The position numbers and the translations under genes are program-made. A stretch of 64,000 bases of DNA from a virus. The stretch spans positions 1 to 64,000 of IMG/VR virus record IMGVR_UViG_3300020450_000018. One strand, written 5' to 3'. This document shows positions 6,621-47,229 of the stretch, in pieces (position 1 is the stretch's first letter; each line of letters begins with the position of its first letter). Under the pieces are notes generated by a model that was not told where the DNA came from, did no database searches, and worked only from the letters and a program-made list of their open reading frames with translations.

Positions 6621-6628
6621 TATTTATT
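6621..6628 (-). promoter_or_regulatory. Late promoter (AATAAATA) upstream of the nuclease gene
   Basis: NATAAATA match about 25 nt upstream of ATG 6597. Confidence 0.5.
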
Positions 6629-9014: not shown

Positions 9015-9415
9015 TATCTTTTTCCTCCACCCATTTGTTTAAGCATTTTTTGTAATTCTGATGTAGAACCTACGAACATAGCATTGTTGGTAACTTTACT
9101 AGGACCTTTTTGTTCTTCATCAAGATCCTTCATTTTTTTATGTAGATCTTGGAGTTTTTCAGTCATATCAGCGACGTGTTTCATTGCTGCTACAGCGACT
9201 TCGTATGCTCTAGGGTGACCACTTTCCTGTGCTACCTCTAAGGCACCTTTGACCGCCTCCTGACCCTGATCTATCAATGAGTATAACTCACCACGAGTAT
9301 ACTCGTAGTCCTTTTGTTGATCATCATCTTTTGATTTTACTTTAGGTGCTGGTGGTTTGTCAACATGTTCTACATCAATGTTGAGAAGTTCCTCCATATT
9401 ATCTTCTAGGTTCAT
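9014..9415 (-). CDS. g16: Terminase small subunit gp16
   Basis: DYEYTRGELYSLI...AQESGHPRAYEVA...NNAMFVGSTSELQKML; follows g15. Confidence 0.93.
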   Translation of the reverse strand: MNLEDNMEELLNIDVEHVDKPPAPKVKSKDDDQQKDYEYTRGELYSLIDQGQEAVKGALEVAQESGHPRAYEVAVAAMKHVADMTEKLQDLHKKMKDLDEEQKGPSKVTNNAMFVGSTSELQKMLKQMGGGKR

Positions 9416-11336: not shown

Positions 11337-11483
11337 TTATTTTGTGGGTGTAATTTGACGACAGATTAAATATGGATTAACCATTTTACATTGCAGTGCC
11401 TTATCTGCTCTAATTGAAATAATTATAATAAAAAGTTGTACAATTATAGTTATTGGTATAACGTACTTAAATAATTTTTTCAT
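11337..11483 (-). CDS. Small signal-anchored protein, 48 aa, inserted between g13 and g14
   Basis: Manual translation MKKLFKYVIPITIIVQLFIIIISIRADKALQCKMVNPYLICRQITPTK; TAATG overlap with the g13 stop, and its stop abuts the g14 ATG. Confidence 0.7.
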   Translation of the reverse strand: MKKLFKYVIPITIIVQLFIIIISIRADKALQCKMVNPYLICRQITPTK

Positions 11484-12307
11484 TATCCTATCATATCCAT
11501 TGGTGGTATTGCGTACTTGCTAAGAACCTCAGATTCAATTTTCTCAATTTCTGCAAGTGCGTCTGTGTAGATTTCTCTACCGTTAAGTGTAACTCCGCCA
11601 GGTAACTGAACATTGTTATACTTAATTAAATTCATACCCCACTGTCTCTTCATGAGAGATGTGGCATATTTTTTAACAAAAACATCATTGTTCATCTGTA
11701 CAGCTTCCGTAGGATCTATAAAACGATGACATTCAATAAGAATGTTAGTTCCTTCTTTAAGAAAATCTTTGTCAATATCCAAGTACAGACGATCATTACG
11801 TGCTGTAAATCTAAACTGCTGGAAAGATCCATTGTTTAGAACCATATCTAGAGTTTCTAGATACTGTTTAGTCATGTAGTAGTTGAGGATATCAAGTGAT
11901 CCAAATGCATATAAGTCATTTAAGAACAACTGATACTCAACACCGAAGAGATTAGAACGAATTGAGTTACTAACAAGACCAAATACTTTAGAAATACCAA
12001 CTACATGATCAGGAATCGGAATAAAATTTGTTGCCTCTAACCAAGTTCCAGTAGCATTTGGTGTGACATTAGTATCGGTAATTGTTTTAGTAGTTGTTGC
12101 TGCAAAACGAGTTTTATCATCTGCAGTAATTTCATGGTACAAATATGCACGCTCCATGCCATTGTAACAATTCTCTTGGAAGAACTGAAACGTGTCGTCT
12201 ATTACGTTGTTGACCTGTTCATCATCTATGTTAACTTGCAACACAGGTTCGCCAAGTTGCCTCTTACAATATGTGATGAGCTCAGCTCTAGAACTTGGAG
12301 ATGCCAT
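11483..12307 (-). CDS. g13: Neck protein gp13
   Basis: YCKRQLGEPVLQVNID...KRQWGMNLIKYNNVQLPGGVTLNG; start likely ATG 12307. Confidence 0.95.
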   Translation of the reverse strand: MASPSSRAELITYCKRQLGEPVLQVNIDDEQVNNVIDDTFQFFQENCYNGMERAYLYHEITADDKTRFAATTTKTITDTNVTPNATGTWLEATNFIPIPDHVVGISKVFGLVSNSIRSNLFGVEYQLFLNDLYAFGSLDILNYYMTKQYLETLDMVLNNGSFQQFRFTARNDRLYLDIDKDFLKEGTNILIECHRFIDPTEAVQMNNDVFVKKYATSLMKRQWGMNLIKYNNVQLPGGVTLNGREIYTDALAEIEKIESEVLSKYAIPPMDMIG

Positions 12308-12314
12308 TATACAC

Positions 12315-12349
12315 AAAAAATCCCTTCTTACCTATTTAGGAAGAAGGGA
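12315..12349 (-). terminator. Rho-independent terminator hairpin with an embedded late promoter (CTAAATA 12333-12339)
   Basis: TCCCTTCTT/AAGAAGGGA stem plus CCTA/TAGG inner stem, with a T6 tail on the minus strand. Confidence 0.7.
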
Positions 12350-12357
12350 TCTGGTAT

Positions 12358-12555
12358 TTATTCAGATGGGGTTTCTGTTTCTGGTGGGGAAGTTTCTTCT
12401 GGTTTTTCTTCTAGAAGTTTCAAAGTTTCTAAACCACCCTCTAGTTTAATTTTATATTCTTTTGCTTTGACTAGGTTTTCCTCTAGTTCTCCAATTTGCT
12501 TTACTGTAGTAGCAATTTGGTCTTCAAAATTTTTCTTAAGTTGTGTTGGATCCAT
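12358..12555 (-). CDS. Small coiled-coil hypothetical protein
   Basis: Heptad-rich LKKNFEDQI...KIKLEGGLETL; positioned just upstream of g13. Confidence 0.75.
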   Translation of the reverse strand: MDPTQLKKNFEDQIATTVKQIGELEENLVKAKEYKIKLEGGLETLKLLEEKPEETSPPETETPSE

Positions 12556-12564
12556 AGTAATTAA

Positions 12565-13131
12565 TTATCTAAGTTGGTCATATGCATGTTGGACATAGTA
12601 TCCATCTGCTCTAACAAAATGAAAGAATGCTTGATGGAAACAAGAATCGGCGTTACCCTTCATTGGTTCTCGCCAATGATAGAGGTCACAACCACGATAT
12701 AGCACACCATCGCCAGGATTGCAAGTAATGCTTACTCTATCGCCTGCCTCGTTCTCAAAATATATAGGCCATTCGTAATTGAGGTTACTTGAGATATGAT
12801 AACTAACACTTATTTCACAAGCACCTCTATCAATATGTCTTTCTAATTGATTACCTTTAAAGTAGAACCGATCAAAATAATAAGATGGATATATTCTTTC
12901 ACCCATCATCTTTTCTAAGATGTCTCTAATTTTTAGATGTAACTCTTTCATTGATGGATGATTATATCTAGAGTAACTTCCTCCTACCTGTATCTCATCA
13001 CGAAAGGTTACATTGCCAGGCGCATTGTATTCATATGTTCCTCTCTCCCATGGAGTAGGAATGATAAATTCATCTGGAGGATGTATGTCTTTAATCTTTG
13101 TGACTTGCCAGTCTTTAGGTAACTTATTCAT
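12565..13131 (-). CDS. Fe(II)/2OG oxygenase-fold protein (HxD...H)
   Basis: ERHIDRGACEISVS, GDGVLYRG..LYHWRE, QAFFHFV; start is likely 13131 (ATGA overlap) or 13137. Confidence 0.78.
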   Translation of the reverse strand: MNKLPKDWQVTKIKDIHPPDEFIIPTPWERGTYEYNAPGNVTFRDEIQVGGSYSRYNHPSMKELHLKIRDILEKMMGERIYPSYYFDRFYFKGNQLERHIDRGACEISVSYHISSNLNYEWPIYFENEAGDRVSITCNPGDGVLYRGCDLYHWREPMKGNADSCFHQAFFHFVRADGYYVQHAYDQLR

Positions 13132-13742
13132 TTCCATCGCGGACCGCTCACCCAACCTACTAATGATTTTCTTAATCCAGAGTGAACCTCACAAGCTTGA
13201 TGCATCACTCTACTATCAAAAACAATTATAGTTCCTCTTTCTTTTGGTATAAAATATGAATTACCAGTATCCCTTTTAAATTCTACCTCTCCTCCAGAAT
13301 ATTCATCAGGATTAGATAGTTGCATAATAAAACTAAGTTTTCTCACCTTTTCAGAACCCTTCATTATAAAATTTTCTCGGTGGTCTATAAGGTTACCTTC
13401 ATTTTTAGGTGGCATTCCCATAGAATTTAAACTAGTATCCATGTGCCATCCATAATATTCACCACCCTCATATGATGTATATTGCATGGTTTCTCCATCC
13501 CAACCATCAATATCATATAAGAAATTTTCCCTATTTGCAAGCAAGACATAATGAAAACAAAGACCTGCAACCCAATGAGATGAACTAATCCAAGTAGTTT
13601 TACTATCTCTTTTTCTTAGATCAACACCACCTTGTGTATATGCTGTGTTTAAATTGGAATCAAATTGTTGTAAATCTTTCTCTACCGATGTAATCAACTC
13701 AGGTGGCATTTGTGTAAAATACCACAAACTATCCATTGACAT
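13128..13742 (-). CDS. Fe(II)/2OG oxygenase, prolyl-hydroxylase/PKHD-like
   Basis: QYTSY...YGWHMD, RKLSFIMQLS...YSGGE, IVFDSRVMHQ, GLRKSLVGWVSGP. Confidence 0.9.
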   Translation of the reverse strand: MSMDSLWYFTQMPPELITSVEKDLQQFDSNLNTAYTQGGVDLRKRDSKTTWISSSHWVAGLCFHYVLLANRENFLYDIDGWDGETMQYTSYEGGEYYGWHMDTSLNSMGMPPKNEGNLIDHRENFIMKGSEKVRKLSFIMQLSNPDEYSGGEVEFKRDTGNSYFIPKERGTIIVFDSRVMHQACEVHSGLRKSLVGWVSGPRWK

Positions 13743-13795
13743 AATACAATTTTCATACTAATATATACTATGTATACTAGCATATAAAATTGATT

Positions 13796-14149
13796 ATGGC
13801 AATTACTGGTAAACTTGATGGTGAAGATTATACACTCGTAGCATCTGCAGGACAAACAACGGAAGCAGATATTGTTGTCGCAAATGACATCATTAGAATG
13901 TGTGAAGAACGAGGATTACAAGAACTTGTCTCAGCAATTAAAGTTCGCTATGGAATGGAAGAAGTAAAACATTATCCTTTGGATGGAAACCGTTTTGTAG
14001 AAGCATGTAAGGCATGTAACATTGCTGGCAATGTTCAAGGACATATTCATAGTGGAGATGAGGGTGCTGTAAGATATCCTATTATTGCTGTTGTTGAAGA
14101 CATCAGAAAATTTGAAGCACTATATGATTACATCAAAAATGATGCATAA
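13796..14149 (+). CDS. Hypothetical protein, first gene of the plus-strand oxygenase operon
   Basis: ORF of about 117 aa with CKAC and GHIH; no family recognised. Confidence 0.75.
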   Translation: MAITGKLDGEDYTLVASAGQTTEADIVVANDIIRMCEERGLQELVSAIKVRYGMEEVKHYPLDGNRFVEACKACNIAGNVQGHIHSGDEGAVRYPIIAVVEDIRKFEALYDYIKNDA

Positions 14150-14744
14150 GGAACTAGCTTTTCCTACTCCCATCTACGTATTTGATTATGGTAATAGTTC
14201 TATTCTAGAATCTCCTCTTAATCATGTATTGAGATGTGATTCTATCTCATCAGAAACTTGTAGAACCACTGACGATAATCTAAATATTTTACCAATTTTT
14301 TCTGAACTTGTAAACGATTTAAAATTAAAAACAAAAATAGTTTTTGATGACATCAAGTTAAAATGTTCTGGAGAAAATATAACTTGCATGTGGGCAAATG
14401 TATCTTCTAAATTGAATAGACATAACATGCATCTACATCCAAATTCATTTTTTTCTGGAGTATTATATTTGAATGCTCCTAAAAATTGTGGTAACGTAGG
14501 GTTTAAAGATCCTAGATACGGATCAGAACTTTTAGCATTTGACTTTGAGGATGGTTCTATCTTCCAACATAGAACGATTGAAATAGAACCAATAACAGGA
14601 AGACTTATAATGTTCCCTAGCTGGTTATATCATGGCACTAGACAAGGAGAATTTGATCCACCAGAGGAGAGAGTATCTTTGAGTTTTAATGTTATGCCAA
14701 TTGCTAACATAAGAGATCATACTAGAAAACTAAATTTATTATGA
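14139..14744 (+). CDS. Putative Fe(II)/2OG oxygenase, TIGR02466-like (HxH...H)
   Basis: FPTPIY, MWANV, HLHPNSFFSGVLY, FKDPR, MFPSWLYHG, RVSLSFN; start likely 14139/14142. Confidence 0.88.
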   Translation: MMHKELAFPTPIYVFDYGNSSILESPLNHVLRCDSISSETCRTTDDNLNILPIFSELVNDLKLKTKIVFDDIKLKCSGENITCMWANVSSKLNRHNMHLHPNSFFSGVLYLNAPKNCGNVGFKDPRYGSELLAFDFEDGSIFQHRTIEIEPITGRLIMFPSWLYHGTRQGEFDPPEERVSLSFNVMPIANIRDHTRKLNLL

Positions 14745-15304
14745 TATGTCAAGTTATAGATGGAATGTTTGACTCTAGATTTCTCACAGAACTAGATTAC
14801 AAACTTAGAGATTTACCAGTTCACACAAACAATGTGGCAAATAGATCATCTTGGCCATATCGTTATGAAGGCACTCACAGACTATTTGGAAAAACTATCT
14901 TTAGTAGAAAATCTATCAATAGAATCACAACCTTAGATGAAAACGCTAATGTTTTCTTTGATATTTTTGAAGAGATAGAAAAGAGATTTGATAAAAAATT
15001 ATATTTGTATGAGATAGCTATAAATTGCCAACACACAGGATGCAATGGTAGTACACATATAGATAGTGAAACTGAAGGAGAATATACTGTCATGCTGATG
15101 ACAAATTCTCATTGGGATCCTTCTTGGGGAGGACAGTTTCAATTAACTAAAGGTAATGAGGTTGTTGAGGAACATGAATATGTGCCAGGAAGACTTCTTA
15201 TAATTCCATCTAATCATGAACATAAAGGTCTAGGACCTACAAAAGAATATGTGTATAGATACACGGTGGTTTATAGAATTAGATATTTGGAGGAAATTTT
15301 GTGA
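14741..15304 (+). CDS. Fe(II)/2OG oxygenase (HxD...H)
   Basis: THID, WDPSWGG, PGRLLIIPSNHEHKG, RYTVVY. Confidence 0.85.
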   Translation: MICQVIDGMFDSRFLTELDYKLRDLPVHTNNVANRSSWPYRYEGTHRLFGKTIFSRKSINRITTLDENANVFFDIFEEIEKRFDKKLYLYEIAINCQHTGCNGSTHIDSETEGEYTVMLMTNSHWDPSWGGQFQLTKGNEVVEEHEYVPGRLLIIPSNHEHKGLGPTKEYVYRYTVVYRIRYLEEIL

Positions 15305-15849
15305 TTAGTTTATTCTCTACTAAAATTGTTTACGTTGATAACTGCAATCTTAATTTAGAAAATTTAGAACGCAAGTGTAGAAATCACATGGTAACAGAAC
15401 CATCAAGCACGAGGTCTAATGTTGGAGGATATCAAGGACACTTCTTTGACGATAACGAATTATATAAGTTAATTGAAAGAAGCATTCCAAGTGTTCAAGA
15501 TAAACCTATTAAAAAATATAAGTATGGAGCTTGGGTAAATGTAAATGGATTTGGATCATATAATGAAAGACATCACCATGATCCACATTCAGGAACTTTT
15601 ATGAGTGGAGTTTTTTATGTGAAGTGTCCAGAAGGATCTGGTAGAATTAGATTCTATGATCCAAGACCACATATCAGCACTAGTGCTGATATGAAATATT
15701 ATAATGGTGGAGACACTTATCATTGGTTTCCTCCTATTCCAAACACATTAATTATGTTTCCTGGTTGGTTGGAACATGATGTAGAAATTAATAGATCACA
15801 AGAAGAAAGAATATCAATCTCTTTCAATATATTTGATGTAGAATATTAA
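15301..15849 (+). CDS. Putative Fe(II)/2OG oxygenase, TIGR02466-like
   Basis: SNVGGYQ, AWVNVN, RHHH, SGVFYV, FYDPR, MFPGWLEHDV, RISISFN. Confidence 0.88.
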   Translation: MISLFSTKIVYVDNCNLNLENLERKCRNHMVTEPSSTRSNVGGYQGHFFDDNELYKLIERSIPSVQDKPIKKYKYGAWVNVNGFGSYNERHHHDPHSGTFMSGVFYVKCPEGSGRIRFYDPRPHISTSADMKYYNGGDTYHWFPPIPNTLIMFPGWLEHDVEINRSQEERISISFNIFDVEY

Positions 15850-15851
15850 TT

Positions 15852-16409
15852 ATGGATACGTTGTATCAAGGATCTATGTTTCAAATTCCTTTTCTACATT
15901 TAAAGGTAAGGGATTGGATTACAAAAAAAGCATATCTTATAGATTCTGTTTCTAAAAACAAAGTGTTTGCAATGAATAATCCTCTACATGCACACACAGA
16001 TTTTCATAGTCAAAATGATCAAGAAATACACAACATCAAATCTGAGGATGTAGAGACATTATTCAAAGATGAGTTGAGTAGTCTTTTTAATTTTATTGGA
16101 ACCAATAAAGGAGAGGTAACAAATTCTTGGTTTGAGTTTGCTCAAGCTAATCAATTTCATAATGTTCATAACCACGGACCTACTGGATACAGTTGTGTTT
16201 GTTTTGTGGAGTATAATAAAGAACACCACACACCAACAAATTTTATTTGTCCATATAATGATGTTATGACTGGAGACATGATTCATTTTTCTCCAAAAAA
16301 TATTAAAGAGGGATCTATCATTTTCTTTCCTTCTTTAATACCACATTTTACAGATCCAAATGTAAGTGGAGTTCCTAGAATTATTTTTTCTTTTAATATT
16401 AGGTGGTAA
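15852..16409 (+). CDS. Putative Fe(II)/2OG oxygenase (HxH...H)
   Basis: SWFE...HNVHNHG, EGSIIFFPSLIPHFT, RIIFSFN. Confidence 0.85.
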   Translation: MDTLYQGSMFQIPFLHLKVRDWITKKAYLIDSVSKNKVFAMNNPLHAHTDFHSQNDQEIHNIKSEDVETLFKDELSSLFNFIGTNKGEVTNSWFEFAQANQFHNVHNHGPTGYSCVCFVEYNKEHHTPTNFICPYNDVMTGDMIHFSPKNIKEGSIIFFPSLIPHFTDPNVSGVPRIIFSFNIRW

Positions 16410-17005
16410 TGTACTATAAAGTAATTGACGATGTAATCTCTAAAGATTATCAAAAATATATTCAGAGTGTAATATATGATATGATGTGGGCATATAAACA
16501 TACTCTATCTGCAAACACACCTTTAGGAGAGGAAGAAAATTTTGTTGATGTACCTGGTTTTTCTAAAGTTTTTTACAATCAGGAGGGAGTTCAAAACCAA
16601 TTGCTTTATAATACAGCAATGCCTTTAGCTCATATTTGTTGCTCAAAAATCAATGTTGAAATAGAAACTATATACTATGGAAGAAGTTTTCTGCAGGTTC
16701 CACTGCAAGATAAATCAGGTATCAGCAATCCACATATAGATATCACAAACTTTAATCATTTAGTTTGTCTATATTATGTTTTTGATTCTGATGGAGATAC
16801 TGTATTTTTTGATAAACGATCCGATAGTGAGGAAAGACCTTCTTTTAAAGATTATAAAATCATTGATAGAGTGACCCCAAAACAAGGAAGAGTTGTATTG
16901 TTTGATGGACGACAATACCACGCAAATTGTCTTCCAAGAAAATCTGATGTCCGTTCAGTAATAAACATGAATTTGGGAGCGAATTACACAAATGTATTAC
17001 AATGA
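16409..17005 (+). CDS. Fe(II)/2OG oxygenase (HxD...H)
   Basis: NPHID, LYYVFDSDGDT, PKQGRVVLFDGRQYHA, RSVINMN; start ATG 16409 (TAATG). Confidence 0.87.
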   Translation: MYYKVIDDVISKDYQKYIQSVIYDMMWAYKHTLSANTPLGEEENFVDVPGFSKVFYNQEGVQNQLLYNTAMPLAHICCSKINVEIETIYYGRSFLQVPLQDKSGISNPHIDITNFNHLVCLYYVFDSDGDTVFFDKRSDSEERPSFKDYKIIDRVTPKQGRVVLFDGRQYHANCLPRKSDVRSVINMNLGANYTNVLQ

Positions 17006-17573
17006 AGTTAATTTTTTAACAGACGAAGAAAAATCTAAAATTGATTCTGAAATCATGGGAAATAATTTTCCATGGTATTATCAAAATTATTCTACCTCAG
17101 ATAAATTTCCATTTTATTCTCATGTAGTAATTCCTAGATGTGAAGATGATGAAATTAATAATTCTAATTCTACAATGTATGATTTTTTTCTAAACATAGT
17201 TGATAGATTTAGAGAAAAAAATAACATGGAAAAAACTCCATTACTTAGAGCTTGTTTAAATTCAAGCAGTGGTTTTGATGATTATCCTCATAGTGATATT
17301 CATGTAGACCATCATTTTGGACATAAAACATTTATAATTTATCTTAATGATGATTTTGATGGTGGTGACACCATTTTGTTTAGTAGATACTGGGTTGAAG
17401 GTCTACAAACAAATTATAAACTTGAGTCTTATAACAAAGAAGAGTTCCCAGAATTAACTAGAATTACTCCAGAAAAACATAAAGTTGTTTGTTTTGATGG
17501 TAGAATTTTTCATGCAACAGAGTGGACTAAAAATAATAAAAGAAGAGTAATTTTTATTGCAACTTTTAAATAA
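16992..17573 (+). CDS. Fe(II)/2OG oxygenase (HxD...H)
   Basis: FPWYY, IHVD, IIYLNDDFDGGDT, CFDGRIFHA, RRVIFI. Confidence 0.87.
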   Translation: MYYNEVNFLTDEEKSKIDSEIMGNNFPWYYQNYSTSDKFPFYSHVVIPRCEDDEINNSNSTMYDFFLNIVDRFREKNNMEKTPLLRACLNSSSGFDDYPHSDIHVDHHFGHKTFIIYLNDDFDGGDTILFSRYWVEGLQTNYKLESYNKEEFPELTRITPEKHKVVCFDGRIFHATEWTKNNKRRVIFIATFK

Positions 17574-17574
17574 T

Positions 17575-18603
17575 ATGAAAAGTGAACAGGAGTGTATAGA
17601 ATATTTTGTCTCAAGTTTTTTAGATGAGCAACATGGCAATGATTACTTTATTGCACATTGCATGGGAGTGTATACAATTCTCAAACAGATGGGTTCACCA
17701 TTAGAAATTTGTATAGCTGGATTATATCACTCAGTTTATGGAACAGAACATTTTACACCTGTTACACGTTTAACAGAACATACTGTTAAAGAATACATTG
17801 GAGAGAGATCAGAAGATCTTGTATCTACTTTTTGTTCTTTGACAGATAGAGATACCTCTATACTAAAAAACTTAAATAACTATGATGAGAGAAAGAGAAA
17901 AGATCTTTTGTATATTAACTATGCAAATTTAGTAGACCAATCTCAATCTCTAGATGATCCTAAATTAAAATTGTTACTAACAGAGTATCAAAGTGCACTA
18001 GCATCAACATCTCCTGTTTTTAATGATACAAAAAATGTCATTGAAATTTATGATGATTTGATCAGTAGCAGTGATTTGGATTGGATGCACACGTATTGTT
18101 TAAATTCTACCTTTACATGTGGACATGCAAGTAATCCTTTAGGATATGAAAGGGACAGTAGATTTTCTTCTCAAATTACAAATAGTGATTTAGAAAGTTC
18201 TGGTGTTTTAAGTGTTGTTAAATCAGTGTCAAAACAATTACAACAAAAATTGTATATTGGTAAATGTTATATCAATCATTATCAGTTGATGACGTCAACT
18301 GGTAGACATACTGATAGTGCCTTACCAAATACTTTTACTATCCTTATTTTTTGTAATAAGTATTGGGAAGAACCTTGGGGTGGAGAGTTAAAAATTTACA
18401 AAGATAAATCAAAAACACATAGTATAATTGATTATATTGCAGGAAGAGTTGTAGTGTTTGATTCTAGAATAGAGCATAAGGTAATGCCTCTTACACATGC
18501 AGCTAAAAAAGATAGGTTTACAATAGCAGTAAAATGTAGTAATATAGAAGGACTACAACATTTAATTTCAATGTATGGAGATGAAATTGTAGATGTACAA
18601 TAA
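17575..18603 (+). CDS. HD-like (DUF6817-type) domain fused to an Fe(II)/2OG oxygenase
   Basis: N-terminal AHCMGVY..L...AGLYHSVYGTE; C-terminal RHTD, WGGEL, VFDSRIEHKV, RFTIA. Confidence 0.82.
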   Translation: MKSEQECIEYFVSSFLDEQHGNDYFIAHCMGVYTILKQMGSPLEICIAGLYHSVYGTEHFTPVTRLTEHTVKEYIGERSEDLVSTFCSLTDRDTSILKNLNNYDERKRKDLLYINYANLVDQSQSLDDPKLKLLLTEYQSALASTSPVFNDTKNVIEIYDDLISSSDLDWMHTYCLNSTFTCGHASNPLGYERDSRFSSQITNSDLESSGVLSVVKSVSKQLQQKLYIGKCYINHYQLMTSTGRHTDSALPNTFTILIFCNKYWEEPWGGELKIYKDKSKTHSIIDYIAGRVVVFDSRIEHKVMPLTHAAKKDRFTIAVKCSNIEGLQHLISMYGDEIVDVQ

Positions 18604-19147
18604 TACATTATTTTCAATCGGTCTCTCTACCTTAGAATTGCAAGGTATGGATAATCAAATACTATGTAATTATGTAAAAGAAAATATTGGAAGACAAAAC
18701 AGACATGTGAACAGTGATGATGCAGAGTTATCAAAATTAAATGCAATAGTCTTACAACAAACTCAAAAAATACTTGATGGTACAATTTCAAATACCGATG
18801 TTAATAATCTAGAAACACAAATAAAACGTGTGTGGGTTAATCAAGATTTGAACACTGATATATCTACAACACATACACATAGAGATAGTTTTTTATCTGC
18901 AATATACTATCCAAAATCAACTGATGGTAAAATACATTTTTATATTCCTTCAGCTGATGTATATTTGTCTCATGTACCAATTTACAAATGTAAAGAGTAT
19001 AATGAGTACAATAGCACATTTTGGGAGTTTGATGTAAAGACAGGATATCTCCTCATCTTTAACTCTATGCTTCCACATGCTGCTCTACCCTCAAAAGAGG
19101 AAAGAGTATCCATTGTTTATGATATAGTAGTCAATGAAAACAATTAA
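18593..19147 (+). CDS. Putative Fe(II)/2OG oxygenase, TIGR02466-like
   Basis: VWVN, HTHRDSFLSAIYY, LIFNSMLPHAA, RVSIVYD. Confidence 0.83.
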   Translation: MYNNTLFSIGLSTLELQGMDNQILCNYVKENIGRQNRHVNSDDAELSKLNAIVLQQTQKILDGTISNTDVNNLETQIKRVWVNQDLNTDISTTHTHRDSFLSAIYYPKSTDGKIHFYIPSADVYLSHVPIYKCKEYNEYNSTFWEFDVKTGYLLIFNSMLPHAALPSKEERVSIVYDIVVNENN

Positions 19148-20594
19148 TTCTATTTGTATCATTGGTGGTGGGACTGCTGGATGGATGTCTGCTGCTTTTC
19201 TTTGCAACAAAAATCCAAAATTAAAAATAACCATTGTTGATAAAGAGATTGGAACTCCAGTCAGTGTAGGTGAAGCTACTATTTTAAACTTTGGTTTTTT
19301 TATGGATCAATGTGGATTTGATTCTGGTGAGTGGTTTAGTTCTTTAGATGCAACATATAAATCTGGAATTTTATTTCCTGATTGGGTAGAGGAAGGAAAA
19401 GATGTTTGGCATCCATTCTTCATGAACCCAACTCTTGATAGTGGAGAGACATCTCACGATGCTTGGTGTAAAAATAAAGATCTTGATTTTGTAGAGTATG
19501 CTCTACCAATGTATTACAACTCTATGGAAAATAAAGTTGATAAGAATGAAATTGGAGCATATGGGTTTCAGATTGATTGCGGAAAATTAGTTGAGTATCT
19601 AAGAAAAAAACTTGATAATAAAGTAACTTACATACCATCAGAAGCTGTTGAGATGTTTAAGTATAAGAATCATCTGATAAAACTTCTACTTAAAAATGAT
19701 ATGGAAATTACATCTGATTTCTTTATTGATTGTAGTGGATGGGAAAGTTTGTTAAAGGAATCTGATAAAGTTGATCTTACTGGTAGACTTTTCTGTGATA
19801 CTGCAATTGCTACCAGAGTTCCATACAATGATAGAAAAACAGAAATGAAACCTTATGTTGTTTCTAGATCTGTTGATTGTGGTTGGATTTGGGAGATTCC
19901 AATAAGAACTAGAATTGGATCAGGTTTAGTTTTTAACAAGTCTATAACTCCTATAGAAGAAGCTAAACAACATCTAATCAAACACTGGGACAATAGAATT
20001 ACAGAAGAAGATTTAAAAGTTCTTAACTGGACTCCATATTATTGTAAAAACATTTGGGAAGATAATGTAGTTTCAATTGGATTGTCCGCTGGTTTTATTG
20101 AACCATTAGAAAGCACTGGTCTTGCTTTAATGATTGATGGATTAAAAAAACTACAAACAAAAATTGCTGATGGTACGTGGAATAATCTAGATAAAGATCT
20201 TTATAATTTAGAAATGCAATCTGCATTTGAAGACTGTATTGATTTTGTTAGCATGCATTATTCTAAACCCTATAAGGATACTCCTTTCTGGAACCATGTA
20301 AGAGAGAATTATATCCCATCAGAAAGAATTAAATCTGTAGAAAATACACTATCCAAAAAATTATTGTATACTAATAACAGAAAAGAACATCACGTTTTCT
20401 CTGGTGCTAACTGGACAACGTGGATGATTCAAATGGGATATGATGTCAATTCAGATTCTACCTATATCAAAGAGATATCAAGAAAAAATTTACTTCGTTA
20501 TCATGAAAGAATTGAAAAGTATAGATCCTCATGGTCTGTGGATCATGAAAGTGATATAAGTAGAGTAGAATTATTTTATGAGTTAGGAAAATGA
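19134..20594 (+). CDS. Flavin-dependent tryptophan halogenase-like protein (PrnA family)
   Basis: GGGTAG FAD motif, VGEAT, ATYKSGI (catalytic Lys position), FIDCSG, GWIWEIP (WxWxIP), GFIEPLESTG. Confidence 0.9.
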   Translation: MKTINSICIIGGGTAGWMSAAFLCNKNPKLKITIVDKEIGTPVSVGEATILNFGFFMDQCGFDSGEWFSSLDATYKSGILFPDWVEEGKDVWHPFFMNPTLDSGETSHDAWCKNKDLDFVEYALPMYYNSMENKVDKNEIGAYGFQIDCGKLVEYLRKKLDNKVTYIPSEAVEMFKYKNHLIKLLLKNDMEITSDFFIDCSGWESLLKESDKVDLTGRLFCDTAIATRVPYNDRKTEMKPYVVSRSVDCGWIWEIPIRTRIGSGLVFNKSITPIEEAKQHLIKHWDNRITEEDLKVLNWTPYYCKNIWEDNVVSIGLSAGFIEPLESTGLALMIDGLKKLQTKIADGTWNNLDKDLYNLEMQSAFEDCIDFVSMHYSKPYKDTPFWNHVRENYIPSERIKSVENTLSKKLLYTNNRKEHHVFSGANWTTWMIQMGYDVNSDSTYIKEISRKNLLRYHERIEKYRSSWSVDHESDISRVELFYELGK

Positions 20595-21166
20595 TTGAGA
20601 GCTGGTTTCCAAGAACTATATTTGTAAAGAATAATATTCTTTTAGATAAACTTGAATACTATGAAAACTTTGTTGACCATATTGTAAATCAAGAGGGTTC
20701 AGAAAGAAATGGAATTCATTTTGTACAATCTACTCACAAATATTTTGATAGATTTCATGAGACTTCCCAGATGCAAGATCTAGTAAGAGAAATTAATACT
20801 AGTTCTCATGAATATCTAAGAGCACTAGGATATAATGATACCACAATAGCATCAACAAAAATTGCAAATATGTGGGCAAACGTTAGTGGTAAAGGAGATT
20901 ACCTCACTCCACACATACATGGTGAAAGTTTGCTTTCTGGTGCGTTTTATGTTTGTTCTGGTGAAGATGACAAACTTAGATTTTTTAATAACATAACAGA
21001 AAGTTTTTTAAAAGCACCAGACAATCCAAACCAATACAGTTATCAGTATTGTGAATATCCTTGTACGCCAGGAAGATTATTAATATTTAAAAGTAGTTTT
21101 ATGCATGGAACAGAGGCACAGAAATCAGATAAGAAAATTGTAATTTCTTTTAATATAACTACATAA
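20591..21166 (+). CDS. Putative Fe(II)/2OG oxygenase, TIGR02466-like
   Basis: MWANV, PHIHG..LSGAFY, PGRLLIFKSSFMHG, KIVISFN. Confidence 0.85.
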   Translation: MIESWFPRTIFVKNNILLDKLEYYENFVDHIVNQEGSERNGIHFVQSTHKYFDRFHETSQMQDLVREINTSSHEYLRALGYNDTTIASTKIANMWANVSGKGDYLTPHIHGESLLSGAFYVCSGEDDKLRFFNNITESFLKAPDNPNQYSYQYCEYPCTPGRLLIFKSSFMHGTEAQKSDKKIVISFNITT

Positions 21167-21437
21167 CTTCTTTAACTCTATCTTTGCTCTGCGCCCATCT
21201 TTCACGCATTTCTTTAGTAAAATACTCAAGACAAACTGTTTTTACCTCTGGTGTTAACCACCAATTTTCTTCAGTTGCCTCTCCAGATATATCATCATCT
21301 GGAGTAATTAATCTTGTGTGATGTCCAATAAAAACTTCAACGCTTCCTACAACGCTAAAATCTTTTTTTCTTACTAATACAGTTCCGTCACCATTGAGTT
21401 CAATGTGATCAACTTTACTTTGTTCTGTAATTGCCAT
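21159..21437 (-). CDS. Small tail-fibre-associated protein (putative chaperone/assembly factor)
   Basis: MAITEQSKVDHIE...HHTRLITPDDDISGE; has an AGGAG RBS; directly follows the adhesin gene. Confidence 0.65.
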   Translation of the reverse strand: MAITEQSKVDHIELNGDGTVLVRKKDFSVVGSVEVFIGHHTRLITPDDDISGEATEENWWLTPEVKTVCLEYFTKEMRERWAQSKDRVKEVM

Positions 21438-21455
21438 GTTTTATATCTCCTGCTA

Positions 21456-22445
21456 TTAAGTATATTTAATAACAATTGTACCAGATCCACCAGAACCACC
21501 GTTACCAGAACCGTAGTCCCATCCAGCACCACCGCCTCCGCCAACACCAGATCCGCCAGGTTGACCTTGAGATCCTTGACAACCACCGCCACCACCTGAG
21601 CCAGGTGCAGGACCAGGATTTGCATACTGTGCTTGACCTCTTCCGCCACCACCAACAGAAAGTGGAGCACCTGCAAAGTCGGTTGTGATACCAGCACCAC
21701 CAGTGTTTTGACCAAAGGAAGCACCACCAGCAGCACCAACTCCGCCACCTCCACCAAAGTTTCCTGGTTCGCCAGGATTACCAGATCCATTAGAAGCAGA
21801 GAAACCAGGTGCCTGAGGTTGTGTTGAATTACCTGCAGGAAAAGATCCAGAAGGATATATAGCTCCTCCTCCTCCACATCCACCAGGTCTTCCAGTACCC
21901 TGTCTACCAGGATGAGAAGATCCACCGCCACCGCCACCATAAGCGACTAGAGTTCCGAAAGTTGTATTTCCACCTTGATATCCATAACCACCATTTGTGC
22001 CAGGTGAAGAACCACCTTGTCCAACACCATAAGAGACAGACTGGCCAGGAGTTACAGGGAAACTATTGACTTGAACCATGGCACCGCCACCGCCACCGCC
22101 TCCAGTTCCTGATCCACCAGAACCACCGCCACCTACGAGTAATACATCAACAGAGGTAATACCATCGGGGACACTCCAAGTTCCAGATTGTGCTGTCAAA
22201 GTTACCTGAGATGGTTCAGCGTCAACCTGCTTCCATCCAGTTACTCCTGTATAAAATTCTAATTTATAGTTTGAGGTGTTAACACGAATAGATCCTTCTG
22301 TTGGAGATCCAGGTCTATTTGATGTTGACCCTGAGGGGACAACAACCTGAGAGGCACCACTTAAATTGATACCAACACCAGGAGCGAAGTTAATATCGCC
22401 ACTTCCTGGAACGGTACTCAATTCATTTACTTTTAACGTACTCAT
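21456..22445 (-). CDS. Glycine-rich putative tail-fibre adhesin
   Basis: MSTLKVN start, PSGSTSNRP...GSIRVNT module, WSVPDGITSVDVLLVGGGG, many polyglycine runs and terminal GGSGTIVIKY. Confidence 0.75.
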   Translation of the reverse strand: MSTLKVNELSTVPGSGDINFAPGVGINLSGASQVVVPSGSTSNRPGSPTEGSIRVNTSNYKLEFYTGVTGWKQVDAEPSQVTLTAQSGTWSVPDGITSVDVLLVGGGGSGGSGTGGGGGGGAMVQVNSFPVTPGQSVSYGVGQGGSSPGTNGGYGYQGGNTTFGTLVAYGGGGGGSSHPGRQGTGRPGGCGGGGAIYPSGSFPAGNSTQPQAPGFSASNGSGNPGEPGNFGGGGGVGAAGGASFGQNTGGAGITTDFAGAPLSVGGGGRGQAQYANPGPAPGSGGGGGCQGSQGQPGGSGVGGGGGAGWDYGSGNGGSGGSGTIVIKYT

Positions 22446-22477: not shown

Positions 22478-22485
22478 TATTTATA
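22478..22485 (-). promoter_or_regulatory. Late promoter TATAAATA upstream of the adhesin gene
   Basis: Exact consensus immediately after the fibre stop codon. Confidence 0.7.
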
Positions 22486-47208: not shown

Positions 47209-47229
47209 TATTTATATTGTTTATTTATA
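47209..47229 (-). promoter_or_regulatory. Two tandem late promoters TATAAATA (47209-47216, 47222-47229) upstream of g8
   Basis: Two exact consensus copies, the second overlapping the g7 stop codon. Confidence 0.7.

What the first reader, a model, noticed from the sequence alone, without database searches (positions are those of the whole stretch)
12565..22445. Tailoring-enzyme island (11 Fe/2OG oxygenases + halogenase) abutting the fibre/adhesin module: candidate virion-protein modification system
Seen: about 8.6 kb of tightly packed, mostly overlapping genes encoding 11 different double-stranded beta-helix oxygenases (2 on the minus strand, 9 on the plus strand), a PrnA-like halogenase and one unknown protein. 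It is the only plus-strand operon in the window, looks AT-richer than its flanks, and converges onto the adhesin/chaperone genes with an 8-nt overlap. It looks like a biosynthetic cluster made only of tailoring enzymes, with no NRPS/PKS, precursor peptide or transporter in view. Known: cyanomyoviruses carry expanded 2OG-Fe(II) oxygenase families and prnA-like genes whose substrates are largely unassigned. Inference: the enzymes post-translationally hydroxylate/halogenate the adjacent receptor-binding fibre proteins (affecting host range, stability or grazer/defence evasion). Alternatives are action on nucleic acids, or draining 2-oxoglutarate, the cyanobacterial C/N signal sensed by NtcA/PII.
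Basis: partly seen in the sequence, partly recalled or inferred. Interest (0 to 1): 0.8.

Follow-up and report, generated by a model that had tools for sequence, protein, structure and literature searches.

The report
Cyanophage oxygenase and halogenase gene array
A marine T4-like cyanobacterial virus carries, between its neck and tail-fibre genes, a packed block of 11 iron oxygenases and one halogenase of a kind known from cyanophages since 2010; its target is still unknown, but one enzyme belongs to a family shown in 2025 to edit aspartate in peptides.

Summary
Window 12565-21166 encodes 11 Fe/2-oxoglutarate (2OG) double-stranded beta-helix oxygenases (2 minus, 9 plus), one flavin halogenase and one unknown protein. 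It is the only plus-strand operon, is AT-richer than its flanks, and ends in an 8-nt convergent overlap.

The kind is already described: tandem dioxygenase/halogenase arrays of cyanophage Syn9 (Iyer et al. 2010). This scan has reported such arrays on other DNA at least 8 times.

- The array fills a variable slot between fibre genes and neck gene gp13.
- Its genes are old, diverged cassettes. A relative at 90-92% nt identity differs by two whole oxygenase genes.
- It has no T4-type late promoter, unlike both flanking structural genes, and is preceded by a sigma-70-like site.
- ORF 17557-18603 fuses a SmaX-type one-iron HD domain (DUF6817) to a 2OG hydroxylase. This pair converts peptide Asp to aminomalonate in bacterial ribosomal-peptide (RiPP) clusters.

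My best guess (about 0.45) is tailoring of ribosomal peptides or proteins. Fibre modification is unproven: no Gly/Asp tract occurs in the 72-kb contig, and the promoter classes differ. Small-molecule tailoring remains a serious rival. Verdict: new member of a known kind.

The parts
12565..13155 (-). 2OG/Fe oxygenase, phrog_2954 family (Syn9 gp54-like; labelled 'ferrochelatase' in PHROGs)
   Evidence: phrog_2954 E 1.6e-62. BLASTP to Syn9 gp54 E 2e-15. H107, D109 and H160 invariant in 11 relatives. AF2 model pLDDT 79 matches 2OG oxygenases.
13128..13742 (-). 2OG/Fe oxygenase, PF13640 (P4H/PiuC-like), phrog_61
   Evidence: PF13640 55.8 bits. phrog_61 E 7.9e-35. Weak hits to the PKHD/YbiX-type NCBIfam models.
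13736..13764 (+). sigma-70-like promoter candidate TTGACA-17-TAATAT in front of the plus-strand operon
   Evidence: Joint best-scoring site of the scan, 10 of 12. Identical in relative L006, no clear counterpart in L007 or L063-L065. A consensus match only; function is inferred.
13796..14149 (+). first gene of the operon, 117 aa, unknown function (phrog_10937)
   Evidence: No Pfam, NCBIfam, PDB or Atlas match. Relatives found only in L006 and L074.
14085..14744 (+). 2OG/Fe oxygenase, TIGR02466/PF13759; likely start at the ATGATG near 14139
   Evidence: PF13759 79.8 bits. TIGR02466 90.7 bits. PDB 2rg4 E 1.5e-12. Start read from the sequence.
14741..15304 (+). 2OG/Fe oxygenase, phrog_274 family (labelled 'DNA endonuclease V')
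   Evidence: PF13640 29.2 bits. phrog_274 E 6.5e-19. HxD...H present.
15301..15849 (+). 2OG/Fe oxygenase, TIGR02466/PF13759
   Evidence: PF13759 76.6 bits. TIGR02466 78 bits.
15852..16409 (+). 2OG/Fe oxygenase, PF13759 (diverged)
   Evidence: PF13759 32.4 bits. phrog_81 E 1.2e-28.
16403..17005 (+). 2OG/Fe oxygenase, phrog_274 family
   Evidence: phrog_274 E 3.9e-35. PF13640 22.1 bits, below the cut-off. Syn9 gp53 E 1.8e-28. HxD...H present.
16992..17573 (+). 2OG/Fe oxygenase, phrog_274 family
   Evidence: phrog_274 E 7.9e-31. Pfam hits below the cut-off. HxD...H present.
17557..18603 (+). fusion: N-terminal SmaX-type one-iron HD domain (DUF6817, residues about 10-150) plus C-terminal 2OG/Fe hydroxylase (residues about 155-340)
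   Evidence: PF20680 58 bits and PF13640 45.1 bits. Conserved residues compared with the paper. Both domains align to WP_160327969.1. AF2 pLDDT 88.9 and VIA matches.
18593..19147 (+). 2OG/Fe oxygenase, PF13759
   Evidence: PF13759 44.9 bits. phrog_81 E 1.9e-24.
19134..20594 (+). flavin-dependent halogenase (PrnA/VirX1 type)
   Evidence: PF04820 282 bits. PrnA E 4.7e-56 and VirX1 E 8.1e-47. G11-G13, G16, W17, K76, G250, W251, P256, E323 and E326 invariant in 9 phage halogenases.
20591..21166 (+). 2OG/Fe oxygenase, TIGR02466/PF13759; last gene of the operon
   Evidence: PF13759 59 bits. TIGR02466 67.3 bits.
21159..21437 (-). 92-aa protein downstream of the adhesin gene (phrog_6228, unknown). It overlaps the last oxygenase gene by 8 nt. 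A flank, not shown to belong to the system.
21456..22445 (-). Gly-rich adhesin-type protein (PF21722) with its own late-promoter motif at 22478-22485. A flank and a candidate substrate only.
   Evidence: PF21722 55.1 bits. TATAAATA 33 nt upstream of the start.
12355..12361 (-). late-promoter motif ATAAATA 39 nt upstream of gp13; marks the left edge of the non-late island

Best explanation
SHOWN
- This is a Syn9-type array of oxidative tailoring enzymes. It sits in the variable slot between the tail-fibre genes and neck gene gp13 of a T4-like cyanomyovirus.
- It is built from interchangeable single-gene cassettes drawn from four old oxygenase families, plus a flavin halogenase.
- Catalytic residues are intact in all 12 enzymes.
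- The array has no T4-type late promoter, although both flanking structural genes have one.

INFERRED
- It is transcribed as its own early or middle unit from a sigma-70-like promoter at 13736-13764.
- The enzymes act on side chains of ribosomally made peptides or proteins, of host or phage, rather than on nucleic acids or as a 2OG sink.
- The clearest case is ORF 17557-18603. Its 2OG domain would beta-hydroxylate a peptide-bound Asp (or a similar alpha-hydroxy-acid-forming position). [quoted passage not shown]
- The other oxygenases would add hydroxyl groups at other residues, and the halogenase would halogenate an aromatic side chain.
- Which protein or peptide is the target is not known.
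For: Known kind:
- Passages of Iyer et al. 2010 (PMC2938197) describe 10 tandem dioxygenases of at least 5 families plus 2 Trp halogenases in Syn9.
- The Syn9 and P-TIM40 arrays sit right after the fibre genes.

Variable slot:
- S-SSM7 has a halogenase plus sugar and carbamoyl genes between fibre-like genes and gp13.
- 66 of 79 viral loci show a neck or fibre marker, and the oxygenase count per locus ranges from 0 to 13.

Cassettes:
- Paralogues share 23-35% identity.
- Relative L006 is collinear at 90-92% nt identity, with two whole-gene indels exactly at gene junctions.

Intact sites:
- HxD...H in six oxygenases and the TIGR02466 His motif in five.
- The halogenase has GGGTAGW, K76, GWIWEIP and EPLE.

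Timing:
- ATAAATA occurs 11 times on the minus strand and 0 times on the plus strand of the window (12.7 expected on the plus strand).
- It occurs 0 times in the 7.4-kb array against 3.1 expected (P(0) 0.049).
- 8 of the 11 copies lie 24-99 nt upstream of ORF starts, including gp13 and the adhesin.
- TTGACA-17-TAATAT lies in front of the operon and is identical in L006.

Peptide chemistry:
- PF20680 scores 58 bits against a 25.2-bit cut-off.
- Phage residues H34, H58 and N124 are invariant and H26, R98 and Q128 nearly so across 27 fusion relatives; T63 is invariant in the six-sequence HD alignment. They match in order and spacing SmaX's H31, H39, H63, T68, R104, N143 and Q147. The Asp of the HD dyad is missing, as in SmaX (sections 10-11 of PMC12186529).
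- Both domains align collinearly to Sphingomonas WP_160327969.1 (E 3e-15 and 2e-7). That protein and WP_325282213.1 are listed as fused SmaO/SmaX homologues in the paper's supplement.
- Next to those genes lies a HlyD exporter component.
- The same two domains occur in reversed order in viral L053 and in bacterial L085-L087.
- For the C-domain, the four best structural matches are protein prolyl hydroxylases, Z 15.7-17.2.

Expression:
- Pieces of the array occur in contigs of RNA libraries: X1 at 90-95% identity and X3 with one 168-nt contig. This does not prove transcription.
Against: - No precursor-like peptide, peptidase-containing ABC exporter (PCAT) or Gly/Asp tract is in the 72 kb held, which is about 37% of the genome.
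- Trp-type halogenases mostly act on free aromatics. I recall VirX1 of Syn10 as halogenating many small molecules; only the title and reference of that paper were seen.
- In S-SSM7-type islands the halogenase sits among sugar-nucleotide enzymes. Bacterial relatives of some Syn9 oxygenases sit with TonB receptors and NRPS genes. Both point to small molecules.
- Five of the 11 oxygenases (TIGR02466) have no characterised relative; PDB 2rg4 and 3bvc are 'uncharacterized', and the one paper found for TIGR02466 is a cyanophage genome report.
- Small-molecule oxygenases such as SnoK and PolD score within about 2 Z units of the protein hydroxylases.
- The promoter call is a consensus match. It is not conserved in L007 or L063-L065.
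- Other windows of this scan reported such arrays behind late promoters (unchecked).
Confidence: 0.45

Rival explanations
1. First reader's version, a narrower form of the best explanation. The substrates are the phage's own neighbouring fibre and Gly-rich adhesin proteins, which end up hydroxylated, halogenated or carrying aminomalonate in the virion. This would alter receptor binding, stability or evasion.
For: - Arrays sit next to fibre genes in Syn9, P-TIM40 and S-SSM7 and in most viral loci.
- Loci with 3 or more oxygenases carry a PF21722-type Gly-rich gene in 24 of 38 cases against 6 of 41 (not corrected for relatedness).
- Iyer et al. predicted tail-collar and collagen-like Gly-rich proteins as dioxygenase substrates in bacteria.
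- A SmaX/SmaO-type enzyme is present, and published precursors often have Asp in Gly-rich regions.
Against: - The array is on the opposite strand and has no late promoter, while the adhesin has its own.
- The adhesin has 2% Asp: 2 Asp next to Gly against 3.1 expected. The fibres give z below 1.5.
- No Gly/Asp tract exists in the contig.
- L006 has the same adhesin (about 90% nt identity) but two more oxygenases.
- The halogenase lies away from the fibres in S-B64 and S-MbCM6.
- A shared insertion slot explains the adjacency without any function.
Confidence: 0.2
2. Small-molecule tailoring (Iyer et al. 2010). During infection the enzymes hydroxylate and halogenate a host-derived amino acid, indole or other metabolite, or a sugar, producing a secondary metabolite or a modified cell-surface component.
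For: - This is the published proposal for the Syn9 array.
- The halogenase is closest to PrnA, Thal, RebH and VirX1, all small-molecule enzymes.
- The S-SSM7-type version of the island combines the halogenase with a carbamoyltransferase, nucleotidyltransferases, a sugar kinase, a heptose isomerase and an epimerase.
- Some SmaX homologues occur with NRPS and TauD genes, where the substrate may be a free or carrier-bound amino acid.
Against: - No scaffold-forming enzyme (NRPS, PKS, ATP-grasp, glycosyltransferase) or exporter is in the ORFs scanned here.
- The gene set is not fixed: 0-13 oxygenases per locus, and whole-gene indels between near-identical phages. That fits poorly with a defined multi-step pathway.
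- The characterised SmaO/SmaX pair works on a ribosomal peptide.
Confidence: 0.3
3. 2-oxoglutarate drain or signal manipulation (Sullivan et al. 2010). The oxygenases matter mainly because they consume 2OG and so affect NtcA/PII signalling or supply succinate.
For: Proposed for cyanomyoviruses in general (passages of PMC3037559). All 11 keep their metal-binding motifs.
Against: - One enzyme would be enough. Eleven paralogues at 23-35% identity, from four families and with variable substrate-side regions, argue for different substrates.
- Fusion to a SmaX-type second-step enzyme and linkage to a halogenase make no sense for a sink.
- I did not search for NtcA sites systematically.
Confidence: 0.05
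4. Nucleic-acid modification or repair (AlkB- or TET/JBP-like action on phage or host DNA/RNA).
For: - A DNA-repair role was suggested in the literature.
- AlkB-family structures appear among generic fold matches.
- Four genes carry the PHROG label 'DNA endonuclease V'.
Against: - No Pfam match to AlkB-type, TET/JBP or T4 endonuclease V families at E 0.01 or better for any of the 19 proteins scanned.
- The 'endonuclease V' label sits on proteins with 2OG-oxygenase Pfam hits and HxD...H motifs, so it is a misnomer.
- AlkB matches cover only about 120 residues at TM about 0.4, below the protein hydroxylases.
Confidence: 0.05

Closest known systems
Syn9 gp40-gp54 tandem dioxygenase / tryptophan-halogenase array of T4-like cyanomyoviruses (Iyer, Abhiman, de Souza, Aravind 2010, PMC2938197; also present in P-TIM40)
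   Same: - T4-like cyanomyovirus backbone.
- Many tightly packed classical 2OG/Fe dioxygenases from several distant families.
- A Trp-type flavin halogenase.
- Position next to the fibre genes.
- Shared families: window proteins hit Syn9 gp45/48, gp51/53 and gp54 at 23-36% identity.
   Different: - One halogenase instead of two.
- No JmjC/MINA member (Syn9 gp49-like) and no relative of Syn9 gp43 or gp40 found by my profiles.
- The array is inverted relative to the structural genes and split into a 2-gene minus part and an 11-gene plus part.
- It contains a DUF6817-2OG fusion and a 117-aa protein that were not found in the Syn9 locus.
SmaO/SmaX cascade, Asp to beta-hydroxy-Asp to aminomalonate in RiPP clusters (Kim et al., J Am Chem Soc 2025, PMC12186529)
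   Same: - DUF6817/PF20680 domain lacking the Asp of the HD dyad.
- Positional equivalents of all seven residues shown by mutation to matter.
- Physical coupling to a 2OG/Fe hydroxylase, here as a fusion; the paper also reports fusions.
- Both domains align to two proteins on the paper's own list of homologues.
   Different: - Encoded by a phage, inside an oxygenase/halogenase array.
- No GG-leader precursor, PCAT exporter or class-defining RiPP enzyme nearby.
- Activity is untested.
PrnA / VirX1 flavin-dependent halogenases (PDB 2aqj, 6qgm)
   Same: PF04820. FAD motif, WxWxIP, catalytic Lys and Glu are conserved. E 4.7e-56 to PrnA and 8.1e-47 to VirX1.
   Different: - 486 aa against about 530-540 aa.
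- The alignment to PrnA stops at PrnA residue 422, so the C-terminal substrate-binding part is not comparable.
- At most 38% identity to any isolate phage halogenase; S-SSM7 is the closest.
- Substrate and halide are unknown.
S-SSM7-type island at the same genome position
   Same: Same slot between fibre-like genes and gp13-gp15. The closest isolate halogenase (38% identity). A few 2OG oxygenases.
   Different: The S-SSM7 island is dominated by a carbamoyltransferase and sugar-nucleotide enzymes and is co-directional with the structural genes. The window's island has only oxygenases, a halogenase and one unknown protein.
PhnY/PhnZ and TmpA/TmpB (2OG hydroxylase followed by HD-domain oxygenase)
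   Same: Same logic: hydroxylate next to an acid group, then cleave oxidatively with an HD-fold iron enzyme, as discussed in PMC12186529.
   Different: Those HD enzymes use a di-iron site with four His and two Asp, and they cleave C-P bonds of free phosphonates. The phage domain has the reduced SmaX-type residue set.

Membership tests
Syn9-type cyanomyovirus dioxygenase/halogenase array | Several tandem classical 2OG/Fe dioxygenases that are distant paralogues from different families | tested here: met
   11 genes in 4 families at 23-35% identity.
Syn9-type cyanomyovirus dioxygenase/halogenase array | A Trp-halogenase-type flavin enzyme inside the array | tested here: met
   PF04820 at 282 bits, placed between two oxygenase genes.
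Syn9-type cyanomyovirus dioxygenase/halogenase array | T4-like cyanomyovirus genome context | tested here: met
   gp13, gp14 and gp15. Tail fibre and baseplate wedge PHROGs. The nearest halogenases are in Synechococcus and Prochlorococcus phages.
Syn9-type cyanomyovirus dioxygenase/halogenase array | JmjC/MINA-clade member (Syn9 gp49) and the accessory non-oxygenase protein of the Syn9 cluster | tested here: not met
   Profiles built from Syn9 gp49, gp43 and gp40 found no window ORF. These are accessory features in the 2010 description, not required ones.
Flavin-dependent Trp-type halogenase (PF04820) | Pfam gathering score; GxGxxG; WxWxIP; catalytic Lys and Glu | tested here: met
   282 bits. 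GGGTAGW, K76, GWIWEIP and E323/E326 are invariant in 9 phage halogenases and aligned to PrnA.
Flavin-dependent Trp-type halogenase (PF04820) | Tryptophan-binding C-terminal module / substrate identity | tested here: inconclusive
   The alignment to PrnA ends at PrnA residue 422 and the protein is about 50 aa shorter.
SmaX-type one-iron HD oxygenase (DUF6817/PF20680) | PF20680 domain above the curated cut-off | tested here: met
   58 bits against 25.2; 60.7 bits in the genome scan.
SmaX-type one-iron HD oxygenase (DUF6817/PF20680) | Fe ligands His, His, Asn and substrate residues His, Thr, Arg, Gln; no Asp after the second His | tested here: met
   H34, H58 and N124 invariant and H26, R98 and Q128 nearly invariant in 27 fusion relatives; T63 invariant in the six-sequence HD alignment only. 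Same order and spacing as SmaX H31/H39/H63/T68/R104/N143/Q147. H34 is followed by C, S or L. The same residues align in WP_160327969.1. Not aligned to SmaX itself.
SmaO/SmaX cascade | Coupling of the HD enzyme to a 2OG/Fe hydroxylase (adjacent or fused) | tested here: met
   Fusion in the window and in 32 of the 38 metagenome protein clusters found. Reversed-order fusions also exist.
SmaO/SmaX cascade | The hydroxylase is an Asp beta-hydroxylase | not testable with these tools
   The 2OG domain aligns at 27-31% identity to the 2OG domain of listed fused homologues and has HxD...H...R. Specificity needs an assay.
SmaO/SmaX cascade | A RiPP-type context: precursor with leader and Asp in a Gly-rich core, PCAT/HlyD export | tested here: not met
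   No Gly/Asp tract in any frame of the 72 kb and no exporter in the scanned ORFs. Only about 37% of the genome is held.
TIGR02466 / PF13759 oxygenase-like family | Curated score cut-offs | tested here: met
   5 of 5 pass Pfam's 27 bits. 3 of 5 pass NCBIfam's 62.5 bits: 90.7, 78 and 67.3, against 51 and 19.9 for the other two. The family's function is unknown.
AlkB / TET-JBP nucleic-acid oxygenases | Family-level sequence match | tested here: not met
   No such Pfam family at E 0.01 or better for any island protein. Fold similarity is generic.
T4 endonuclease V (DenV) | Pyrimidine-dimer glycosylase family match, as implied by the phrog_274 label | tested here: not met
   The four phrog_274 proteins match 2OG oxygenase Pfam families or carry HxD...H, and none matches an endonuclease V family.

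The most novel reading that the evidence does not exclude
The array is a phage-borne protein-editing toolkit. It is expressed before the structural genes, and its enzymes persist and decorate phage or host proteins with hydroxyl groups, halogens and, through the SmaX/SmaO-type fusion, the metal-chelating residue aminomalonate. That would be the first aminomalonate or enzymatic halogen post-translational modification linked to a virus. The rapid swapping of single oxygenase cassettes next to the fibre genes would then be a way of diversifying virion or host surface chemistry.
Probability: 0.2. Interest if true: 0.8.

Novelty: new member of a known kind. Interest (0 to 1): 0.4.

Why it matters
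2OG oxygenases are among the most common unexplained genes of marine cyanophages. A 2023 review counts them in 76 of 153 genomes, and halogenases in 20 of 153. A 2022 genome paper states that their function in viruses has not been investigated.

This window adds no new kind of system, but it gives three usable handles:
- One array member can be tied, residue by residue and through proteins listed in the paper's supplement, to the only biochemically defined 2OG-plus-HD peptide-editing cascade. That names a concrete reaction and mass shifts to look for.
- The array is a set of exchangeable cassettes in one fixed genomic slot.
- In this phage the array belongs to a different promoter class from the fibres it adjoins. 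Any fibre-modification model must explain that.

Tried and rejected
- Near-identical DNA in the isolate phage collection: none. The best protein-level isolate match to the halogenase is 38%.
- The published Syn9 transcriptome (Doron et al. 2016), which could give the expression class of Syn9 gp40-54, is not held. Expression timing therefore rests on motifs only.
- Promoter conservation: the sigma-70-like site is shared only with L006. L007 and L063-L065 show no consistent site.
- Substrate hunt: no enrichment of Asp next to Gly in the 26 window proteins read in frame (a 27th, the 117-aa protein, was read out of frame by my coordinate slip); the largest z was 1.9, in gp15. No window of 20 residues with at least 5 D, at least 5 G and at least 12 D+G in any frame of the contig.
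- Split form: in L008 and L026 a stand-alone HD gene lies between oxygenase genes. The downstream neighbour is not the counterpart of the window's fused 2OG domain (BLASTP E 1.8), so I do not use it as a Rosetta-stone pair.
- Most bacterial DUF6817 genes fetched (L088-L164) are stand-alone, with no oxygenase that my phage-trained profiles could see. Those profiles would miss TauD or AspH types.
- PhnZ and TmpB were not among the 50 VIA rows shown for the fusion model. The HD half matched small alarmone hydrolases and Mesh1 at Z 12.7-13.5, which for a helical domain is near the tool's stated background.
- RNA libraries: only assembled contigs could be laid. They show presence of array-like sequence, mostly from a 90-95% relative, but not strand, level or timing. 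Two of the four runs gave almost nothing.
- The 117-aa and 92-aa proteins gave nothing in Pfam, NCBIfam, PDB sequence search or the Atlas.
- Literature: 'TIGR02466' gave one cyanophage genome paper. 'FlmC flagellin oxygenase' gave none. Among the 10 titles listed of the 17 papers found for 'aminomalon' plus 'phage', none links phage enzymes to aminomalonate. 'DUF6817' gave only Kim et al..
- No complex prediction was run: enzyme-substrate pairs are outside what that test is good for.

Full report
WHAT IS THERE

The window is the first 64 kb of a 72,176-bp viral contig, estimated about 37% complete. It is a T4-like cyanomyovirus:
- gp15, gp14 and gp13 lie at 9412-12316 on the minus strand.
- Baseplate wedge and tail-fibre proteins of 598 to 3705 aa lie at 22486-60143 on the minus strand.
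- The nearest halogenases are in Synechococcus and Prochlorococcus phages.

Between gp13 and the fibre module lie, in order:
- a conserved 65-aa ORF (12358-12555, minus);
- two minus-strand oxygenase genes (12565-13155 and 13128-13742);
- a 53-nt divergent spacer;
- eleven plus-strand genes (13796-21166) that mostly overlap by a few bases.

The last plus-strand gene overlaps a 92-aa minus-strand ORF by 8 nt. That ORF follows a Gly-rich PF21722 protein (21456-22445) and a 3310-aa tail fibre protein (phrog_5342).

CHECK OF THE OBSERVATION

- Eight of the eleven oxygenases pass Pfam's own cut-off.
- ORFs 16403 and 16992 fall below it. They belong to phrog_274 (E 3.9e-35 and 7.9e-31) with two paralogues that do pass, and all four carry HxD...H.
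- ORF 12565 has no Pfam hit. It belongs to phrog_2954, matches Syn9 gp54 (E 2e-15) and keeps H107, D109 and H160 in 11 relatives. Its AlphaFold2 model (pLDDT 79) matches 2OG oxygenases at Foldseek probability 1.00.
- The PHROG labels 'ferrochelatase' and 'DNA endonuclease V' on these families are misnomers. They also appear in the RefSeq annotation of Syn9 and P-TIM40.
- The four families are TIGR02466/PF13759 (5 genes), phrog_274 (4), phrog_61/PF13640 (1) and phrog_2954 (1). Paralogues share 23-35% identity, so they are not recent duplicates.
- The halogenase has the FAD motif, WxWxIP, and the catalytic Lys and Glu.
- The array is the lowest-GC stretch of its size in the window, 0.28-0.33.
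- It holds every 2OG-oxygenase hit of the contig.

THE KIND IS KNOWN

Iyer, Abhiman, de Souza and Aravind (2010, PMC2938197; passages read) described 'remarkable' cyanophage neighbourhoods. Syn9 has ten tandem dioxygenases of at least five families plus two tryptophan halogenases. The authors proposed amino-acid-derived secondary metabolites.

Sullivan et al. (2010, PMC3037559; passages read) proposed 2OG/NtcA manipulation or DNA repair. A 2022 genome paper says the viral genes have not been investigated functionally (PMC9602691; passages read).

This scan has reported such arrays on other DNA at least 8 times, each time concluding that the kind is known, the array is linked to fibres and the target is unknown. 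My independent reading agrees.

WHERE IT SITS

In Syn9 and P-TIM40 the array directly follows the fibre and fibre-assembly genes. In S-SSM7 the same interval, fibre-like genes to gp13, holds the closest isolate halogenase (38% identity) among carbamoyltransferase and sugar-nucleotide genes. In S-B64 the halogenase sits beside gp46/47-type genes, and in S-MbCM6 beside psbA and hli.

I fetched 79 viral loci with related halogenases: one, and the best 80 of 599 candidates (78 distinct loci). I mapped them with profiles built from the window and from Syn9/P-TIM40 proteins. Results:
- 50 of 79 hold at least one oxygenase, and 44 of 79 hold one within three genes of the halogenase.
- 66 of 79 show a neck or fibre marker. 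Of the 31 loci of 15 kb or more, 27 show one and 17 show both.
- Oxygenase counts run from 0 to 13 per locus, and halogenase counts from 1 to 5.
- Loci with 3 or more oxygenases carry a PF21722-type gene in 24 of 38 cases, against 6 of 41. This is a raw association that ignores relatedness and contig length.
- The halogenase is on the same strand as the nearest Gly-rich gene in 21 loci and on the opposite strand in 9.

The picture is one conserved variable slot at the fibre/neck junction, filled with different cargo in different lineages.

CASSETTE TURNOVER

Locus L006 is collinear with the window at 90-92% nt identity from gp13 into the giant fibre gene. It has two extra whole genes:
- a TIGR02466-type oxygenase inserted exactly at the junction at window 14142;
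- a phrog_274-type oxygenase at the operon's end, window 21158-21168.

So the 8-nt convergent overlap in the window is the scar of one such gain or loss. The adhesin next door is unchanged in kind.

PROMOTER CLASS

The T4-type late-promoter core ATAAATA occurs 11 times in the window, all on the minus strand. On the plus strand it occurs 0 times, against 12.7 +/- 3.7 expected. Eight of the eleven copies lie 24-99 nt upstream of minus-strand ORF starts, including gp13 (12355) and the adhesin (22478).

The 7.4-kb plus-strand array has none, against 3.1 expected (P(0) about 0.05). None precedes the two minus-strand oxygenases either. The joint best sigma-70-like match of the region, TTGACA-17-TAATAT, lies at 13736-13764, immediately upstream of the first plus-strand gene, and is identical in L006.

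That gp55-type late promoters read TATAAATA is established knowledge for T4-like phages. Its use here is inferred from position and strand bias. I infer that the island is a non-late unit between two late units. Enzymes made early can still meet late proteins, so this weakens co-expression with the fibres but does not exclude fibre modification.

THE SmaX/SmaO-TYPE FUSION

The only paper found for 'DUF6817' is Kim et al. (J Am Chem Soc 2025, PMC12186529). I read the abstract, sections 7, 10 and 11, part 1 of 3 of supplement 1, and matched passages elsewhere in the text. In brief:
- SmaO, a 2OG/Fe enzyme, beta-hydroxylates two Asp residues of a RiPP precursor.
- SmaX, a DUF6817 HD-fold enzyme with a single Fe, cleaves the hydroxy-Asp to aminomalonate.
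- SmaX has Fe ligands H39, H63 and N143, and substrate residues H31, T68, R104 and Q147. It lacks the Asp of the HD dyad.
- Fusions exist, and many precursors have Asp in Gly-rich regions.

The phage domain compares as follows:
- It scores 58 bits on PF20680, against a cut-off of 25.2.
- In six phage sequences, H26, H34, H58, T63, R98 and N124 are invariant. In 27 fusion relatives, H34, H58 and N124 stay invariant and H26, R98 and Q128 nearly so.
- These have the same order as the SmaX residues, with an offset of 5-6 for the first five. H34 is followed by C, S or L.
- Both halves of the phage protein align collinearly to two Sphingomonadaceae fusion proteins: HD half E 3e-15 and 1e-13, 2OG half E 2e-7 and 4e-11.
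- Exact look-up identifies one of these as WP_160327969.1. A third fetched fusion, not aligned here, is WP_325282213.1. Both are on the paper's supplementary list of fused SmaO/SmaX homologues. Both lie next to a HlyD-type export gene.
- The same two domains occur in reversed order in viral locus L053 (E 4e-21 and 8e-12) and in three bacterial MAG loci. That argues for repeated, independent fusion.
- Thirty-two of the 38 metagenome protein clusters found share the fusion architecture.
- The AlphaFold2 model (pLDDT 88.9, pTM 0.57) has two domains. The C-domain's four best matches are protein prolyl hydroxylases: P. putida P4H with EF-Tu (Z 17.2), two HIF prolyl hydroxylases, and PBCV-1 collagen P4H (Z 15.7). 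Small-molecule enzymes follow within about 2 Z units. The N-domain matches RelH/Mesh1-type HD folds at Z 12.7-13.5.

Two earlier notes of this scan also linked DUF6817/2OG pairs in another phage to this paper.

IS THERE A SUBSTRATE IN VIEW?

No.
- The adhesin is 31% Gly but only 2% Asp: 2 Asp next to Gly, against 3.1 expected.
- The fibres are not enriched either (z below 1.5).
- No 20-residue Gly/Asp-rich window exists in any frame of the 72-kb contig.
- The 92-aa protein has one NGDGT, which I do not count as evidence.
- About 63% of the genome, and the host, were not examined.

EXPRESSION

Contigs of one seawater metatranscriptome, at 90-95% identity and so from a relative, cover five pieces of the array as well as neck and fibre genes. 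Another run has one 168-nt contig with no mismatches at 16828-16992. Contigs cannot show strand, level or timing, and DNA carry-over is possible.

WEIGHING

- A 2OG sink or nucleic-acid role fits poorly. There are eleven diverged, intact paralogues, a second-step enzyme is fused to one of them, and no AlkB, TET or DenV family matches.
- A fixed small-molecule pathway fits poorly with the variable gene set and the lack of any scaffold-forming enzyme. However, the halogenase family and the sugar-rich S-SSM7 version of the island keep it alive.
- Peptide or protein tailoring is favoured by the one enzyme that can be tied to known chemistry and by the fold neighbours of two oxygenases. Its target is open.
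- My estimates: peptide/protein tailoring 0.45, which includes about 0.2 for the fibres specifically; small molecules 0.3; 2OG sink 0.05; nucleic acids 0.05; the rest mixed or other.

VERDICT

It is a new member of a kind known since 2010 and seen repeatedly by this scan. It carries one useful new handle, the SmaX/SmaO-type fusion, and one caution for the fibre-modification idea, the different promoter class and the absence of a matching substrate motif.

Noticed in passing
window, whole; copies at 6621, 7981, 8833, 12355, 22478, 35470, 37062, 47209, 47222, 60560, 62815 (all minus strand): The late-promoter core ATAAATA is strongly avoided: 11 copies seen against 26.9 expected on both strands, and 0 against 12.7 expected on the plus strand. 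Eight of the 11 copies lie 24-99 nt upstream of minus-strand ORF starts. This is a clean map of late transcription units.
   Followed up: partly
window 12565-13155, 14741-15304, 16403-17573; L002 (Syn9 gp51, gp53, gp54); L004 (P-TIM40 gp051, gp054): The database labels 'ferrochelatase' (phrog_2954) and 'DNA endonuclease V' (phrog_274) sit on 2OG/Fe oxygenases. The labels have spread into RefSeq phage annotation.
   Followed up: yes
L006 3113-3733 and 10751-11257 against window 14142 and 21158-21168: A relative at 90-92% nt identity differs by exactly two whole oxygenase genes, inserted or deleted at gene junctions.
   Followed up: yes
L009, L031, L033, L035, L037-L038, L040-L048, L050, L052, L054, L056-L057, L066, L068: Another phage group carries one to three (mostly two) tandem halogenases directly after a gp15-like gene and a 146-182-aa ORF. 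These are followed, where the contig extends far enough, by ORFs of about 416, 280 and 136 aa and, in some, a convergent ORF of up to about 2000 aa. My profiles find no oxygenase in them. I did not work out what kind of phage this is.
   Followed up: no
L001 (S-SSM7) and L013-L021, L024, L025, L032, L034, L036, L051: The same fibre-to-gp13 slot holds a conserved block: four paralogous proteins of about 260 aa, a carbamoyltransferase-sized ORF of about 600 aa, a halogenase and sugar-nucleotide genes, ending in a convergent pair just before gp13.
   Followed up: partly
window 12358-12555 (-): A conserved 65-aa acidic coiled-coil-like ORF (phrog_580, E 4.7e-21) lies between the island and gp13. 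It is also found just upstream of gp13 in L071, L073 and L078.
   Followed up: no
window 22486-32418, 37209-45305, 47225-58342 (-): Three giant structural genes of 3310, 2698 and 3705 aa. The 2698-aa one matches only PHROGs of unknown function.
   Followed up: no
L088-L164 (bacterial genome contigs): Stand-alone DUF6817 genes of about 180 aa are widespread in Latescibacterota, Planctomycetota and Gemmatimonadota MAGs, in a recurring context: ORFs of about 398-420 aa before the gene and about 500, 345 and 300 aa after it on the other strand. The context was not annotated.
   Followed up: no
window 14085-14744, 15301-15849, 15852-16409, 18593-19147, 20591-21166: The five TIGR02466/PF13759 proteins conserve H-x-H...H rather than the usual HxD/E...H of 2OG oxygenases, as does PDB 2rg4 in the printed alignment. 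Whether the second ligand is His was not checked on a structure.
   Followed up: no
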